Sequence record: NC_021190.1
Source of the DNA: Enterobacteria phage phi80
Strand: one strand, 5' to 3'
Length of the DNA stretch: 46,150 nucleotides
Shown here: one piece after another, positions 24,001-30,000 of the stretch
How positions within the stretch are numbered: the first letter of the stretch is position 1
Layout: the number at the start of each line of letters is the position of its first letter
Program-made: the position numbers

Positions 24001-27000
24001 GCAACTAACGGCGCTCAAGTCAGCGGGTTGTGAGAAAATTTTTGAAGAGCATGCCAGCGGGAGGAAATCGAATCGGCCGGTTCTAAAACGGCTGATCGCC
24101 ACTATGCAGCCGGGGGATGAACTGGTGGTCTGGAAGCTGGACAGGATAGGCCGCAACGTTCTGCATGCGCTGTTGATGTTCCAGCAGTTACAGGAAAAGG
24201 GTATCAACTTCCGCAGTATTACAGATGGTGTAGACCTGAAAACAGCAAGTGGTCGCTATAATTTCCGTAATATTCTTTCTGCTGCGCAGTATGAATCTGA
24301 TTTGAATAGCGAGCGTACCTTAGCAGGGCTGGCCGTAGCCAGGGCAAAAGGGCGAGTTGGTGGTCGCAGGCCTAAGTTCACGGATGAGCAATGGCGGGAA
24401 ATGGGGGAGCGGATGGCAACCGGTGAATCACGACAAAGCGTATCAAAAACGTATGGAGTAGGGCTCTAAACTCTGTATAAAAAGTTTCCAGCTAGCTGAT
24501 AACGGGAAAGAAACAGAGAAGGGCACAAATATTGTGTACTTTAATGTGCCCTTTAATTTATTGATTGGTGGTTGAATTGTCCGTAACTTTTTGATTTAAG
24601 TGCAAATTTCTAATAAATTAGAACACTTTCTTAAATTGTCATTTGGCATATTACGAACAATTCCGCGTAAAAACGTTCTGTTACGCTAAACCCTTATCCA
24701 GCAGGCTTTCAAGGATGTAAACCATAACACTCTGCGAACTAGTGTTACATTGCGTGTAGCTTTGAGTGGGCAACTTTGTGTACACTTTTGTGTACCCAAA
24801 AACAAAAATGTGTACCCATTCAATGATCACCGACACAAAGCTCAGGAAGGCGCTCGGCAAGAAAAGAGATGATATCGAGATTATTTCTGATTCGCACGGG
24901 CTCAACGCCAGAATCAGCCAGGCCGGAAAAATATCATTTTTCTATCGGTATCGCTGGGCCGGTAAAGCGGTAAAACTCAATGTTGGTGATTATCCTGCAA
25001 TGAGTATCACCCAGGCAAGAGAGCGTCGCCAACAATTCAGAAACTGGTTAACTGAGGGACTGGATCCGCGAGAGCAGGTGAAGCTGGATAAGCAGACCCG
25101 ACAGGAAGCGATGTCCGTTGCCGAAGCGTTCAATTACTGGATTGAAAGGCACTGTATCGCTAACGGGCTAGTTAAAGTCGATTACTATCGCCAGGTGTTT
25201 GAGAAACATATCGCCGAACCGATGAAGAATGTCAAAGTCGATAACACAGCGAAAATGCACTGGATCAACGTCTTCGATTCTATAGAAAGCAGGGTGATGG
25301 CTCATTACATGCTTTCGCTGTGCAAACGGGCGTTTAGGTTCTGCGTTAACAGAAGTGTGATCGCCTCAAACCCACTCGAGGGATTACTGCCATCTGATGT
25401 CGGGCAAAAGCCTAAAAAGAGAACTCGCAGGATGGACGATGACGATCTGCGCAAAATCTATCAGTGGTTGAAAAGCCATATGTCGATAGAGTCCGTTTTC
25501 CTGGTGAAATTTATTATGCTTACCGGATGCCGTACGGCTGAGATTCGACTTAGTGAGAGATCATGGTTTCGATTGGATGATAATGAGTGGGTCGTGCCTG
25601 CGGGCAGTTATAAAACTCGGGTACATATTAGAAGGGGACTCTCAGACGCCGCCGTTAACCTGGTCAGAAATCACCTCAAGAAAATAAACACCAATCACCT
25701 GGTGACTTCACAACGTAAAATTGATGGCGGGATCAAAGATTCGCCCGTTCATTCACCTGTGGCATCCAATTACGCCCGTTCTATTTGGAATGGAACAGGT
25801 ATGGCAGAGTGGTCGCTTCATGATATGAGGCGGACGATAGCCACAAATCTCTCTGAGTTAGGTTGCCCGCCGCACGTAATTGAAAAGCTGCTCGGGCATC
25901 AGATGGTGGGGGTTATGGCGCATTACAACCTTCATGACTATATCGATGATCAGAAACACTGGCTCCGCGTTTGGCAGAGCCATCTTGAAGAGATCATCGG
26001 AGAGCCCTTCAGTTAATTTATCTTCTTTTTATCCTCCCACTCTTTGATTGACTCAGAGCGCCAGCGGTTAGGGTTGCCGGGCCAGTCAGGGGGTGGGAAC
26101 GGGCATACGAAGCCCCGAGGCATTGTGTCTGCACTTTGCCATGACCAAAGGGTTTTGCGTGAAATTTTGTAGCGACTGGTCAGGTCTGACGTTACCAAAA
26201 TATCATCCATAGCTCTCTCCAGTTGCCCGTTCGGGCCATTCAAAATCTTTTTCAACCAACCTGCCCGGGCAGGGAGCGGAGACGGCGCATGCCGGTCATC
26301 GCTGTGGCCACGTAGCTCGCCTTTCGGTTCACCACCTCCACCCAGACTTTCACGCCTTCAACCTTCACCGTATAAGTCTCTTTCATCTTGCTTCGCCCAT
26401 AGTCGCCATATGTTTGCAAGTGAGCTGCCAGCGCAACATCGCAAGCGCGGCGACCAATAGGTGATTGCTTACTGCGATTAATCAGCTTCATCATCACTGC
26501 ACTCCCAAAGTGGCTACGACATCACTCGCTGTTTCGCGGGTACTGCCTTTGCTGGATATAGCCCGGCGAGCACTGACGCGGTGCAGATTGAAGCCGTGCT
26601 GTTCGTAAAGTTCAATTACGCGCGGTGCGGTAGAATTGCTGATCACCACTTTTGCCCCCCGCTGGTGGGCTGCCACACAGCTTTCCGCAAGCTCTACCTG
26701 GCTATCCCATGAGAACCCACCAGCCGCGTAGTTAGTGAAACCAGCGGTGCCGGGAAGCGGCTCATAAGGCGGATCGCAGTAAACGACGTCACCATCACCT
26801 GCCAGCGCGAGCGTGCGCCTGAAGCCTGCATTCATGAATACGCATGCGTGAGCCTTCCGCTTAAATGCCTTGATCTCTTCTTCCGGGAAATATGGCGCTT
26901 TATATTTCCCAAAGCCGACGTTAAAAAAAACCGTCCAGGTTGTAACGAATCAGGCCGTTGAAGCAGTGCCGATTGAGGTAAAGGAATGCTGCTGCACGCT

Positions 27001-30000
27001 CGACCGCATCCAGCCGCTGCGCGTTGAATGCTTCACGAATTAACGTATAGTTTTCGGCATCATTAAGATGCCTGAATGCCTTCATTGCCTCATAGATCAC
27101 CGAATCGGGGACCACCGCCAGCATCTGATACAGGTTAATCAGGTCAGCGCTGACGTCAGCCAGAAGGAAGCGTTCGTGCTTGTCTGAGTTAAGGAACACC
27201 GAGCCGCCACCCACAAAAGGCTCAATAAGGCGTTTACCTGCGGGGATCAAACGATCCAGTTCCGGCAGCAGCGAATATTTGCCGCCAGCCCATTTAAGGA
27301 ACGGGCGCTGCCAGCTGCGCAGCGCCGGTTCTTCTATGGGCATCGCCGCAGCTCCACTGCAAACAGATCCGTATCTCATGCTGCCTCCTGCCTTTCCCGA
27401 TATTCCTCAGCGAGCCGCTGCGCCTTTAATGGATTGCTGACCACTTCACCCCATGGTATTAGCCAGCAGTTACCAATGAAGGGGAGGCACAGTGTGCCTA
27501 CGCTGATGTCGTCGTGAGCGTGAGTCATAGGATGGACTCCATTTCGTCGATATAGAGGCCCTGAGCAATCAGGCGGCGACGGCGTGCTGCACGTTCAATG
27601 CACTCCTGCCGCCTGCCTTCCTGCGACTGCTCTATGGCGCGCCGGGTGAACAGCCGAGATTTACCCTGCGGCGTAATGACCTTTGGCTTCGTAACCAGGT
27701 CGAATGTCCGGTCGCAGATGCCGTCCTCGTTGATCCATTTTTCCGACTCAACGATCTGCGCTATCTGTCCGGTGCCGCGGGTGATGCCGTTGGCGACCCG
27801 GTTAAACTCAATGAGCGATACGCCAAACTTCTCGGCGATTTCGCTGCCAGTGACCGGGCGGCCGCGCGTCTGAATCATCCAGATAACGCGTTCACGGAGG
27901 CCGGAGAATTGCCCGGCTCGCCCGGGCCTGCGGTAGAATGGTGTGCGTTTCATTTCCACTGTTCCCCGAACGTGAAGCCGATCTCTGCCAGCGCCTCGTC
28001 CATCTTCTCGATGAACTCCGGCACCATTTCGTTGAAATCGGACATGTACTGAGGATCCCGCTCAACGACGACGTGGTGAATGCCTTCGCGTTTCATGCGC
28101 GGGTCGTAGTTTGCAAAGAACCATGCGTCTTTTCCGGTCACCCACATGCTGTACTGCACCTGGGCCATGTACGCAGACTTGATGGCTTCGAAACCGCCAA
28201 GGCGGAATTTCATGAAGTCGCGGGAGGTGAAAGGGCATTTAAGCTCAAGGCCGAACCCGTTACTGCACAGGCCGTCAGGGGAGCAGGCGGTGCGCATGCT
28301 CTCGTCACGGAACAAGATCGGAGACTCCGTGACTTTCACGTCAGTGGTGAACTCGAAGAGGGTGCGGGCGTCTTCTTCGTACTGCTTGCCCCAGGCCAGC
28401 GCCTTGGCGTTAACCTCTGGCGCTACACCGGTGCATACCTCGGCGAGCAAGGTGTGGAAGTAGGACATTTTCATGTCTGTCCATTTGCTGCCAGATCGAG
28501 GCTTGGAAATGACGTTGTGAGCGTCAGAGGCAGTAATAACTCCGAGCCTTAATTTGGCCCATGCTTCATCACCTTGCTCTACGGTGGACACATCTATGCC
28601 GGTCCGGGCCAGGATAATTTCTGGTGTCATGCTGCCGCCTTCTTCTTGAGGAAGCCTAAGGCCTTAACTGCCTCGGCTTGGGTAAGCTCGGATGAATCGC
28701 GAATATCACGACGGAAAATTTGCGAACAGACTGGGAGCAGGTTTTCTTCCCATGTCTTATCCATTGCGATAAGGACGTCGTTAATCTCCTTGATAATTTC
28801 GTCTCCTGCTGGGGTTACATCGCGTTCTGGCTGGCGTTCTGCTGAGAAGTTGATACCTTCCTCACCCTCGGTATTAACATGGTCGATGGCGGCATCCAGG
28901 CGCTCACGTCGAGGCCAGTATTTTGCTGCCTGCTTCACGACCGTCTTTAGGATCATCTGCTCTTCATCGGTGACCCATGGACACTTCTTGCTGTTGTCAG
29001 ATTTGTACTTCTTCCATGCTTCAGACCGGTCACGGATGGAGTAGATGGCATCGATGCGCATCGTATGGGTAAGGTAATCACCATCGTCAGTTTTTACCGT
29101 TACATACGCCCCTACAATGTCCCCGCGCTGCTCTTCAGTATCAAAGTCGTTGTAGATGTGGATCGGCGGCTTATCGAGCCCCTCGCGGCGGAACTGGTCG
29201 TTTCTTCGAACAATAGCCGACTGGCACCACTTAATGGCGCCAGACTGCTGCGCGATGTGCATCAGGCCCATGTAACTGATGTCGAGGCAAATAGCCCCTT
29301 TACGCGGAACCAGGTAAGCCAGCTTCTGAGCTGGGTTTAGCGAAATACCGATAGCCGCAACGTTGATGATCGCGTTCTGTGTGCTGGTCTGGTTCTGGAA
29401 TGCAACTTTCGCGAGGTAGTCGTTGTTCTGAAATAGCTGGATGGCGAACTGACTTTCCTTCGCCCACACCATCCGCTCGTCAGTGGCCGCCTTAATGAAA
29501 AGCGGCTCCTGTTGTTTGACGAAATCAACAAGGGTTAAGCTCATAGTCCCTCCTTAAAATGGGCAGATTGGATGAAGGCGATCCCACTCTTCTTCGGCGC
29601 GGTCGTAACAGATGCGTGTGACATAGTCGTTATAGGCTTCCTCTGCCTTTTCACCGACTAGTGCCATTTGCGCTTCTTTTGGGAGAAACAGGCTACTCAT
29701 TTGCAGAGCATATTTCGGGAACATGGCGATCAGTTCTTTCGCCCGGTCGTCGATCCACTTCTCTTTCTCGTCGGTGAGTTGCTGCTCAACCCAGCGCCGT
29801 TCTTCGATGCGGTCGTAAGTGAGGTATGCGTTCATGTTTGCCTCAATATTTGATGTGCGCGTCCTGCACTTTGCCGCCAGCGATCGCCAGCACTGCTTTC
29901 TGTGCGTATTCTTCTGGGATGCCCTGAGCAATCAGATCTGCGTAGACACGACGATTGACGGTGCGGCGGTGCTCTTTGTCTGCGGCTCGGCGCGCTTCTT

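What the first reader, a model, noticed from the sequence alone, without database searches (positions are those of the whole stretch)
26494..27379. Phage dam methyltransferase interrupted at an 8-nt homopolymer
The N-terminal part (AdoMet-binding FxGxG region) and the C-terminal part (DPPY) of a Dam-family methyltransferase lie in frames offset by one nucleotide, and the switch falls exactly at the T8 tract (minus strand; A8 on plus, 26923-26930). With seven T the gene reads through as ..LDGFFNVGFGKYKAPYFPEE.. into the DPPY part. This is either a homopolymer sequencing error, a recent inactivation, or a slipped-strand ON/OFF switch for phage methylation.
Basis: seen in the sequence. Interest (0 to 1): 0.6.

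Follow-up and report, generated by a model that had tools for sequence, protein, structure and literature searches.

The report
Frameshifted dam pseudogene of phage φ80
The window is the laboratory phage φ80 (Lula), and its Dam-type DNA methyltransferase gene is broken by one extra T in a run that has seven T in all wild relatives; this is an ordinary, already annotated pseudogene, with no sign of an on/off switch.

Summary
On the minus strand, 26494-27379 holds one Dam-family (Pfam PF02086) gene. It is split exactly at a T8 run (26923-26930). The upstream ORF matches profile positions 1-130 and the downstream frame matches 131-253. Removing one T gives a 294-aa protein that matches E. coli Dam (E=2e-68).

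The window is phage φ80/Lula (46,150 bp).

- **Not a sequencing error.** All 59 φ80-identical copies in complete E. coli genomes carry exactly T8. So do four φ80-identical contigs from viral and metagenome collections.
- **Relatives are intact.** Every natural relative examined has T7 and an open gene: 16 E. coli prophages and about 48 viral, genome and metagenome loci at 92-98% identity. No T5, T6 or T9+ was found.
- **Little decay.** Apart from the extra T, φ80 has one private substitution in 819 nt.
- **Already annotated.** RefSeq calls it "DNA adenine methylase, frameshifted".

Best reading: a young, fixed +1 insertion at a T7 hotspot in the φ80 stock. Phase variation and programmed recoding are not supported. 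Low-level leakiness (RNA polymerase slippage, or a +1 shift at UUU-UAA) is untested. One loose end remains: the exact repaired protein occurs on 48 Logan/ENA contigs that I could not retrieve.

The parts
26494..27379 (-). Whole dam (damL) pseudogene of phage φ80/Lula. It is 886 nt. With T7 it would be an 885-nt, 294-codon gene.
   Evidence: RefSeq annotation of the identical DH10B copy reads 'DNA adenine methylase, frameshifted', pseudogene flag.
26921..27379 (-). Upstream ORF of 152 aa, the N-terminal half of Dam. It covers Pfam PF02086 positions 1-130 and ends at TAA 26923-26921.
27203..27217 (-). AdoMet-binding motif I, F-V-G-G-G (the FxGxG motif).
   Evidence: Read directly. Aligned to EPFVGAGSVF of E. 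coli Dam.
26923..26930 (-). T8 homopolymer (A8 on the plus strand), the site of the +1 insertion. Wild relatives have T7 here (GGT TTT TTT AAC).
26494..26922 (-). C-terminal half of Dam in the +1 frame. It covers Pfam positions 131-253 and has no stop before the natural TGA.
26764..26775 (-). Catalytic motif IV, D-P-P-Y.
   Evidence: Read directly. Aligned to VVYCDPPY of E. coli Dam.
26494..26835 (-). Internal ATG ORF of 113 aa. Gene callers report it as a separate 'putative DNA methyltransferase'. It holds DPPY but lacks the AdoMet-binding half.
   Evidence: P0001.
27353..27379 (-). The first 9 codons, MRYGSVCSG. They are identical to the start (motif I region) of the C5-cytosine-methyltransferase domain in the 610-856-aa C5-MTase-Dam fusions of relatives. 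They look like the remnant of an in-frame deletion.
   Evidence: PF00145 + PF02086 in L064.
26252..26497 (-). Downstream DUF4060 gene. Its start (GTGATGATG) overlaps the dam stop, so the frameshift removes translational coupling.
27376..27528 (-). Upstream DUF1317 gene. Its stop overlaps the dam start (ATGA).

Best explanation
The window is the temperate coliphage φ80 (= Lula). Its early-left operon carries an orphan Dam-family N6-adenine DNA methyltransferase gene (damL), lying between the DUF1317 gene and the DUF4060 gene that precedes xis and int. In the laboratory φ80 stock this gene gained one extra T in a T7 run (GGT TTT TTT AAC became GGT TTT TTT TAA C), most likely by replication slippage. 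Translation now stops at a TAA made by the last T of the run and the next two bases. That is after residue 152, inside the region that aligns with the DNA-contacting hairpin of E. coli Dam and upstream of the catalytic DPPY motif. The 152-aa product cannot methylate DNA. The lesion is fixed in every sequenced φ80 copy, so the gene is a young pseudogene, not a switch. Loss is probably tolerated because the E. coli K-12 host supplies Dam itself (inference). What is shown: the anatomy, the identity of the phage, the invariance of T8 in φ80, T7 in all intact relatives, and the lack of other decay. What is inferred: the slippage origin, the loss of activity and the reason for tolerance.
For: Identity of the phage: there is a 100% match to the φ80dlacZΔM15 prophage of DH10B, DH5α, TOP10, JM83 and others. 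The Lula genome length of 46,150 bp is reported in PMC2885432. Anatomy. Family: E. coli Dam structures 2g1p/4rtj at E=2e-68 over residues 24-289, and TIGR00571 'dam' at 266 bits against a cut-off of 115. T8 is fixed in 59 of 59 complete genomes at 68/68 nt identity (301-nt spans). The four T8 contigs in IMG/VR and the metagenomes are 99.7-100% φ80 over 1.9-14 kb. Relatives have T7 with an open frame: 5 E. coli prophages and Citrobacter phage Omnitron, 16 E. coli genomes with a 67-nt span, 35 IMG/VR loci plus 2 GTDB genomes, 11 metagenome loci and 3 more. These prophages encode the same integrase and DUF4060 protein accessions as φ80. Youth of the lesion: φ80 differs from the closest intact allele (L019, 98.1%) at 16 nt, 11 synonymous and 4 non-synonymous codons. 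There is only one φ80-private substitution (T264N) in 819 nt against 32 distinct relatives. RefSeq already flags the gene as frameshifted. Indirect experimental support: host dam-mutant phenotypes were the same with and without a φ80 prophage (PMC6582345).
Against: The exact T7-repaired φ80 protein, including the private N264, exists in the 15-billion-protein collection on 48 contigs (Logan and ENA only, longest 39.7 kb). Some T7 copies of the φ80 allele have therefore been assembled somewhere. They may be homopolymer under-calls, true revertants or an older T7 stock, and I could not retrieve them. A 2026 paper (PMC13449921) reports that Rotman et al. 2012 saw an altered BamHI pattern after deleting damL, and suggests the methylase is active. 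The primary paper was not available. There is a simpler explanation: dam lies inside the 25062-28053 BamHI fragment, so a deletion changes the fragment size, and to my knowledge BamHI is not blocked by Dam methylation. The sequence UUU UUU UAA is intrinsically shift-prone, so complete loss of function is not proven. All φ80 copies descend from one isolate, so the 59 genomes are not 59 independent evolutionary samples.
Confidence: 0.82

Rival explanations
1. Leaky pseudogene or adventitious recoding. The T8 allele would still yield a little full-length Dam by one of two routes. E. coli RNA polymerase could slip on the T8 run and make U7 or U10 transcripts. Or ribosomes could shift +1 with tRNA-Phe in the P site on UUU and the slow UAA stop in the A site (UUU_U AAC), which restores exactly the ancestral ...GFFNVGFG... 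sequence.
For: The sequence is GGU UUU UUU UAA C. Slipping tRNA-Phe one base forward re-pairs it with UUU and puts AAC in the A site. That is the codon relatives use. Published data: E. coli RNA polymerase shows about 0.75-0.8% insertion slippage at T6/T7 runs, is biased towards poly(T), and rescues indels detectably with more than 7 A/T (PMC6260861). An A8 run rescues about 10% of human apoB product, and some IS elements seem to use 8 A (PMC1088944). Incidental +1 shifting next to a stop can reach 15% in pheL (PMC3082878).
Against: The arrangement is not conserved. About 64 natural relatives have T7 in frame, and SEN34 has TTT TTC with no long run. It is therefore not an evolved recoding signal. 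There is no Shine-Dalgarno-like stimulator upstream (read). There is no unusual RNA structure around or downstream of the site (z = -0.26). Frame restoration needs a 1-nt deletion or a 2-nt insertion in the RNA, and deletions are the rarer slippage class. In many genomes selection against slippage becomes evident at 9 nt, not 8. Any product is expected at a level of about 1% or less.
Confidence: 0.12
2. Contingency locus. The T run would be a slipped-strand ON/OFF switch for phage DNA methylation, flipping between T7 (ON) and T8 (OFF) at useful frequency.
For: The homopolymer lies inside the ORF at a point where plus or minus 1 nt toggles the frame. The exact repaired φ80 protein is seen on 48 contigs.
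Against: There is no length polymorphism where it should show. The φ80 lineage gives 59 of 59 genomes and 4 of 4 contigs at T8. Wild relatives are T7 in every case, with no T5, T6 or T9-T11. From my own knowledge, not tested here, known phase-variable methyltransferases use longer or G/C-rich tracts. SEN34 encodes the same peptide without the run, so the tract is not conserved as a device. The 48 T7 contigs amount to at most about 5% of the capped T8 count. They come only from bulk assemblies of raw runs and not from any curated genome.
Confidence: 0.05
3. Homopolymer sequencing or assembly error in the deposited phage genome, with the real phage having T7.
For: Homopolymers of 8 are classic error sites for some platforms. 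48 contigs encode the T7 product.
Against: An identical T8 appears in 59 complete genomes deposited by many different groups and in 4 further contigs.
Confidence: 0.01

Closest known systems
E. coli Dam (EcoDam; PDB 2g1p, 4rtj), the GATC N6-adenine methyltransferase of the D12 class
   Same: The full-length alignment covers residues 24-289 of the repaired protein against 4-266 of EcoDam (E=2e-68). The FLKWAGGKY, FxGxG and DPPY motifs are the same. Most of the hairpin segment NGL.RYNL.G.FNV.FG.YK.PYFPE is identical. By my recollection of Horton et al. 2006, this segment holds the GATC-contacting residues.
   Different: It is phage-borne. It scores below the equivalog cut-off for the chromosomal enzyme (274 against 441 bits). 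It has a short N-terminal extension derived from a C5-methyltransferase. It is frameshifted in φ80.
Intact Dam genes of wild φ80-like prophages and phages, for example E. coli TOK-001 WP_016243541.1, 88COLEC WP_225373251.1, IMG/VR loci L018/L019 and Citrobacter phage Omnitron
   Same: They occupy the same position (DUF1317 - dam - DUF4060 - int). The integrase and DUF4060 protein accessions are identical. Nucleotide identity is 95-98%. L009, L013, L018 and L019 have the same 294-aa architecture, including MRYGSVCSGAAAMPIEEP.
   Different: They have T7 and an open reading frame of 290-301 aa, or 610-856 aa when fused to a C5-methyltransferase.
Phase-variable DNA methyltransferases ('phasevarions', such as the mod genes of Haemophilus, Neisseria and Helicobacter)
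   Same: A simple repeat inside a methyltransferase ORF whose length sets the reading frame.
   Different: Those tracts vary between and within strains. Here no length variation was found in any lineage.
Indels in homopolymers that are partly rescued by slippage (human apoB A8; the herpesvirus thymidine kinase G-run 'savior' indel)
   Same: A single-base indel in a run of 7-8 identical bases, where a low level of compensating slippage is mechanistically possible (PMC1088944; PMC5009743).
   Different: Rescue has been measured in those cases. Nothing has been measured for φ80 dam.

Membership tests
Dam family / D12-class N6-adenine DNA methyltransferase (PF02086, TIGR00571) | Profile match above the curated cut-off | tested here: met
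   The repaired protein scores 197 bits on PF02086 (cut-off 22) and 266 bits on TIGR00571 (cut-off 114.85). Both halves match separately.
Dam family / D12-class N6-adenine DNA methyltransferase (PF02086, TIGR00571) | AdoMet-binding motif I (FxGxG) and catalytic motif IV (DPPY) | tested here: met
   FVGGG lies at 27203-27217 and DPPY at 26764-26775. Both align to EcoDam.
Dam family / D12-class N6-adenine DNA methyltransferase (PF02086, TIGR00571) | One uninterrupted reading frame that encodes both motifs | tested here: not met
   A TAA stop follows codon 152 and the DPPY half is in the +1 frame. RefSeq lists it as a 'frameshifted' pseudogene.
Dam family / D12-class N6-adenine DNA methyltransferase (PF02086, TIGR00571) | GATC-specific N6-adenine methylation activity | not testable with these tools
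   This needs methylation assays in a dam-null host.
Chromosomal Dam orthologue (NCBIfam equivalog NF008152) | Score above the equivalog cut-off | tested here: not met
   274 bits against a cut-off of 441. It is a phage paralogue, not the host dam.
Phase-variable (contingency) methyltransferase | A simple-sequence tract inside the ORF whose length sets the frame | tested here: met
   T8 lies at 26923-26930, and T7 restores the frame.
Phase-variable (contingency) methyltransferase | Tract-length polymorphism among strains or copies | tested here: not met
   59 of 59 φ80 copies are T8. About 64 relatives are T7. There are no T5, T6 or T9+ alleles. One unresolved point: 48 contigs encode the repaired protein.
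Phase-variable (contingency) methyltransferase | Conservation of the repeat as such in homologues | tested here: not met
   Salmonella phage SEN34 encodes the same GFFN as GGT TTT TTC AAT.
Programmed recoding (+1 ribosomal frameshift of the prfB type, or transcriptional slippage of the dnaX/IS type) | The frameshifted arrangement is conserved among homologues | tested here: not met
   Only φ80 itself has the two-frame arrangement.
Programmed recoding (+1 ribosomal frameshift of the prfB type, or transcriptional slippage of the dnaX/IS type) | A slippery codon followed by a stop or slow codon in the zero frame | tested here: met
   UUU UUU UAA C.
Programmed recoding (+1 ribosomal frameshift of the prfB type, or transcriptional slippage of the dnaX/IS type) | A stimulatory element (upstream Shine-Dalgarno-like sequence or nearby RNA structure), or a run of 9 or more for RNA polymerase slippage | tested here: not met
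   The upstream sequence AACCUGGACGG has no strong SD match. The fold z-score is -0.26. The run is 8, below the 9-nt threshold reported for many genomes (PMC1088944).

The most novel reading that the evidence does not exclude
The T8 allele may not be dead. It could be kept at a trickle of expression, by RNA polymerase slippage on the U run or by a +1 'shifty stop' event at UUU-UAA. Alternatively it could revert to T7 at the DNA level often enough to be seen (the 48 Logan/ENA contigs with the exact repaired protein). Either way the common laboratory phage φ80 would carry a conditionally active Dam that could alter GATC methylation of phage or host DNA during induction.
Probability: 0.12. Interest if true: 0.35.

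Novelty: already known. Interest (0 to 1): 0.12.

Why it matters
It matters little for biology at large. This is a one-base frameshift in an accessory gene of a well-studied laboratory phage, and RefSeq already flags it. It has some practical relevance because φ80 and φ80dlacZΔM15 sit in the most widely used cloning strains (DH5α, DH10B, TOP10, JM83). The phage dam copy in those strains is broken, and the wild allele is T7 and intact. This bears on people who interpret methylomes or build dam-null derivatives of these strains. It also gives a clean natural example of a T7 run acting as a mutational hotspot.

Tried and rejected
**Sequencing error.** Rejected by 59 of 59 identical complete genomes.

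**Phase variation.** I scanned IMG/VR, GTDB species genomes and JGI metagenomes for T5 to T11 alleles. Only T7 turned up in relatives and T8 in φ80 itself.

**Programmed recoding.** No conservation among homologues, no SD-like stimulator and no RNA structure.

**Split two-subunit enzyme.** The idea was the 152-aa and 113-aa fragments working together. The only in-frame ATG for the C-terminal piece (26835) has no well-spaced ribosome-binding site (read). That fragment would also lack the part of the hairpin region between codons 153 and 181. I did not pursue this further.

**Primary literature.** Rotman et al. 2012 (the Lula/φ80 genome paper that named damL) and Durfee et al. 2008 (DH10B genome) are not held. 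A search for 'damL' gave only unrelated papers.

**ER2796 as a test case.** The methylation-free ER2796 genome paper turned out not to involve a φ80 lysogen.

**The 48 T7 contigs.** The neighbour-gene route reads only the longest contigs, which are complete genomes.
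Full report
**1. What is in the sequence**

On the minus strand the text reads ...CGT TAC AAC CTG GAC GGT TTT TTT TAA CGT CGG C... The T8 run is at 26930-26923, which is A8 on the plus strand at 26923-26930.

The ORF list gives a 152-aa ORF at 26921-27379 (-) that ends ...RYNLDGFF*. It also gives a 113-aa ORF at 26494-26835 (-) that contains DPPY.

Against Pfam, the upstream ORF covers positions 1-130 of PF02086, the D12-class N6-adenine methyltransferase model (E=1.5e-31). The translation of 26494-26922 in the next frame covers positions 131-253 (E=4.3e-19). 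With one T removed, the 294-aa product covers 1-253 in one stretch (E=4.9e-58).

The two halves of one domain therefore meet exactly at the homopolymer. The observation, its coordinates and the proposed read-through peptide are all correct.

The repaired protein aligns over residues 24-289 with E. coli Dam structures 2g1p and 4rtj (E=2e-68). It passes the TIGR00571 'dam' subfamily cut-off. It does not pass the equivalog cut-off for the chromosomal enzyme.

The stop falls in the segment that aligns to ...RYNLRGEFNVPFGRYK... of EcoDam. By my recollection of the EcoDam structure papers, this is the DNA-contacting hairpin. The stop is also upstream of DPPY, so the 152-aa product should be inactive. 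That last step is inference.

**2. What the window is**

The 1.1-kb region is 100% identical to the φ80dlacZΔM15 prophage of DH10B, DH5α, TOP10, JM83, XL10-Gold, EPI300 and other laboratory strains. There it lies next to int and the host gene kch.

The window length of 46,150 bp equals the published length of Lula, which is identical to φ80 (PMC2885432).

A recent paper calls this gene damL, citing Rotman et al. 2012. RefSeq annotates the DH10B copy as 'DNA adenine methylase', pseudogene, 'frameshifted'. The lesion is therefore already on record.

**3. Is T8 real, and does it vary?**

A 68-nt query centred on the run gave 59 complete E. coli genomes in the 99% or higher band. For 68 nt that means a perfect match, because a single indel would give 98.5%. 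The 301-nt query gave the same 59, and all 47 of them that were listed show 301-nt spans at 100.0% identity. This excludes a sequencing artefact.

The other 16 genomes with this gene are natural isolates from frog, human, cattle, food, seawater and sediment. Those listed show spans one base shorter. The five I fetched have T7 and annotated intact genes of 873-906 nt, or 2175 nt as a fusion. Their integrase and DUF4060 protein accessions are the same as in φ80. Citrobacter phage Omnitron also has T7.

Pattern scans that allowed different run lengths gave the following.

| Collection | Loci found | T7 | T8 |
|---|---|---|---|
| IMG/VR viral contigs | 37 | 35 | 2 |
| GTDB species genomes (Pantoea stewartii, Enterobacter bugandensis) | 2 | 2 | 0 |
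| JGI/ENA metagenomes | 13 | 11 | 2 |

- No T5 or T6 was found in viral contigs. The metagenome scan covered T5 to T11 and found only T7 and T8. The viral and species-genome scans reached up to T9.
- All four T8 contigs are 99.7-100% identical to the window over 1.9-14 kb. Three of them stop aligning at 24617, which I read as the prophage junction. They are therefore DNA of φ80 lysogens, including two in 'marine metagenome' assemblies.
- Every T7 locus that was not cut by a contig end is open through the site, with about 146 codons downstream of it.

T8 is thus private to the φ80 lineage and T7 is universal in wild relatives. Salmonella phage SEN34 (82% identity) encodes the same GFFN as GGT TTT TTC AAT, so the run itself is not conserved.

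**4. Age of the lesion**

Compared with the closest intact allele (IMG/VR L019, 98.1%), the repaired φ80 gene differs at 16 nt, in 11 synonymous and 4 non-synonymous codons.

Against 32 distinct relatives, only one substitution in 819 nt is private to φ80 (T264N). That position aligns to a variable stretch of EcoDam.

Both motifs are intact. The frameshift is therefore the only obvious lesion, and the inactivation is young on an evolutionary scale.

The extra T is present in both the wild-type phage (the window) and the φ80dlacZΔM15 derivative. It therefore predates the split of those laboratory lines. The historical dating of that split rests on my own knowledge and was not tested.

**5. Mechanism and rivals**

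The best explanation is replication slippage that added one T to a T7 hotspot. This produced a fixed pseudogene, tolerated because E. coli K-12 supplies Dam itself (inference).

A slipped-strand switch is not supported, because no length variation exists in either lineage.

Programmed recoding is not supported either. The two-frame arrangement is not conserved, no SD-like stimulator precedes the site, and the local RNA fold is ordinary (z=-0.26).

Adventitious leakiness cannot be excluded.
- UUU UUU UAA C allows tRNA-Phe to slip +1 next to a stop and read AAC, which restores the ancestral sequence.
- E. coli RNA polymerase slips at roughly 0.8% on T6-T7 runs, with a poly(T) bias. However, insertions outnumber the single-base deletion that would be needed here (PMC6260861).
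- Selection against slippage typically appears at 9 nt (PMC1088944).
- Incidental +1 shifting next to a stop can be high in special contexts (PMC3082878).

I expect about 1% or less full-length product. This is untested.

**6. Points that cut the other way**

(a) The exact repaired 294-aa φ80 protein, including N264, is recorded on 48 contigs. These are from Logan and ENA only, with the longest at 39.7 kb. I could not fetch the 48 contigs. They may be homopolymer under-calls, revertants or an older T7 stock.

(b) PMC13449921 reports that deleting damL changed the BamHI pattern in Rotman et al. 2012, and suggests methylase activity. The window has 14 BamHI sites and none lies in dam. The gene sits in the 25062-28053 fragment, so a deletion changes the band size by itself. 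To my knowledge BamHI is insensitive to Dam methylation.

(c) Host dam-mutant phenotypes were unchanged by the presence of a φ80 prophage (PMC6582345). This fits an inactive gene but is weak evidence, because the gene is probably repressed in a lysogen.

**7. Comparison with what is known, and verdict**

By sequence the gene is a member of the Dam family, but it fails the requirement of an intact frame. It does not meet the defining features of phase-variable methyltransferases or of programmed frameshift genes.

It is a known, annotated pseudogene in a classical phage. Novelty is 'already known' and interest is low.

The useful additions here are three. The wild allele is T7. The lesion is lineage-private and invariant. 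The gene is otherwise undecayed.

Noticed in passing
window 27353-27379 (-); relatives L011, L016, L026, L039, L040, L044, L045 (856 aa), L030 (854 aa), L024 (730 aa), L002 (724 aa), L007/L014/L042 (610 aa): The first nine residues of φ80 Dam (MRYGSVCSG) are identical to the start of a C5-cytosine methyltransferase domain. In many relatives that domain is fused upstream of the same Dam domain (...GTPCQ...ENV...GNSMAVPV...RIAAALPIAEPTPRSWQRPFLKW). φ80 reads MRYGSVCSG|AAAMPIEEPALRSWQRPFLKW. This looks like an in-frame deletion between the IEAA and IAAA stretches that removed the whole C5 domain. Intact wild alleles with this same deletion exist (L009, L013, L018, L019, L047).
   Followed up: partly
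window 26497-27376 slot; loci L061-L066 and hits H81-H85: The position between the DUF1317 gene and the DUF4060 gene is a variable DNA-modification cassette in φ80-like prophages. Variants seen: Dam (290-301 aa), C5-MTase+Dam fusions, a PAPS_reduct+PF05869 Dam protein (511 aa), dcm, MT-A70, a phage N6-adenine methyltransferase, queuine tRNA-ribosyltransferase, or nothing.
   Followed up: partly
collection look-up, protein P0002: The exact T7-repaired φ80 Dam (294 aa, with the φ80-private N264) is recorded on 48 contigs, from Logan and ENA only, with the longest at 39.7 kb. The two halves are each on 1000 or more contigs. The origin is unresolved: platform error, revertants or an older stock.
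   Followed up: partly
L050 and L059 (ENA 'marine metagenome' assemblies OUVH01000034 and OUVP01000355); L010 and L034 (IMG/VR UViGs from metagenomes 3300030073 and 3300014652): These environmental contigs are 99.7-100% φ80 over 1.9-14 kb. Three stop aligning at window position 24617, which I read as the prophage junction. They are almost certainly DNA of laboratory φ80 lysogens (cloning strains) contaminating metagenome and viral catalogues.
   Followed up: partly
window 14012-14019 (+): This is the only other homopolymer of 8 or more in the phage, a T8. It lies between the ORF ending at 13974 and the ORF starting at 14031 in the tail-gene region, so it is not in a listed ORF on the + strand.
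   Followed up: partly
window 26494-26497 and 27376-27379 (-): The DUF1317 gene, dam and the DUF4060 gene overlap by ATGA and GTGATGA start/stop junctions, which suggests translational coupling along the early-left operon. The premature stop leaves about 430 nt untranslated ahead of the DUF4060 gene, apart from the internal 113-aa ORF. That could lower expression of the DUF4060 gene, xis and int from this transcript. Not tested.
   Followed up: no
window 26588-26590 (-), codon 264 of the repaired gene: This is the single φ80-private substitution in the 819-nt core. φ80 has Asn, 31 of 32 distinct relatives have Thr and one has Met. The position aligns to a variable stretch of EcoDam.
   Followed up: yes
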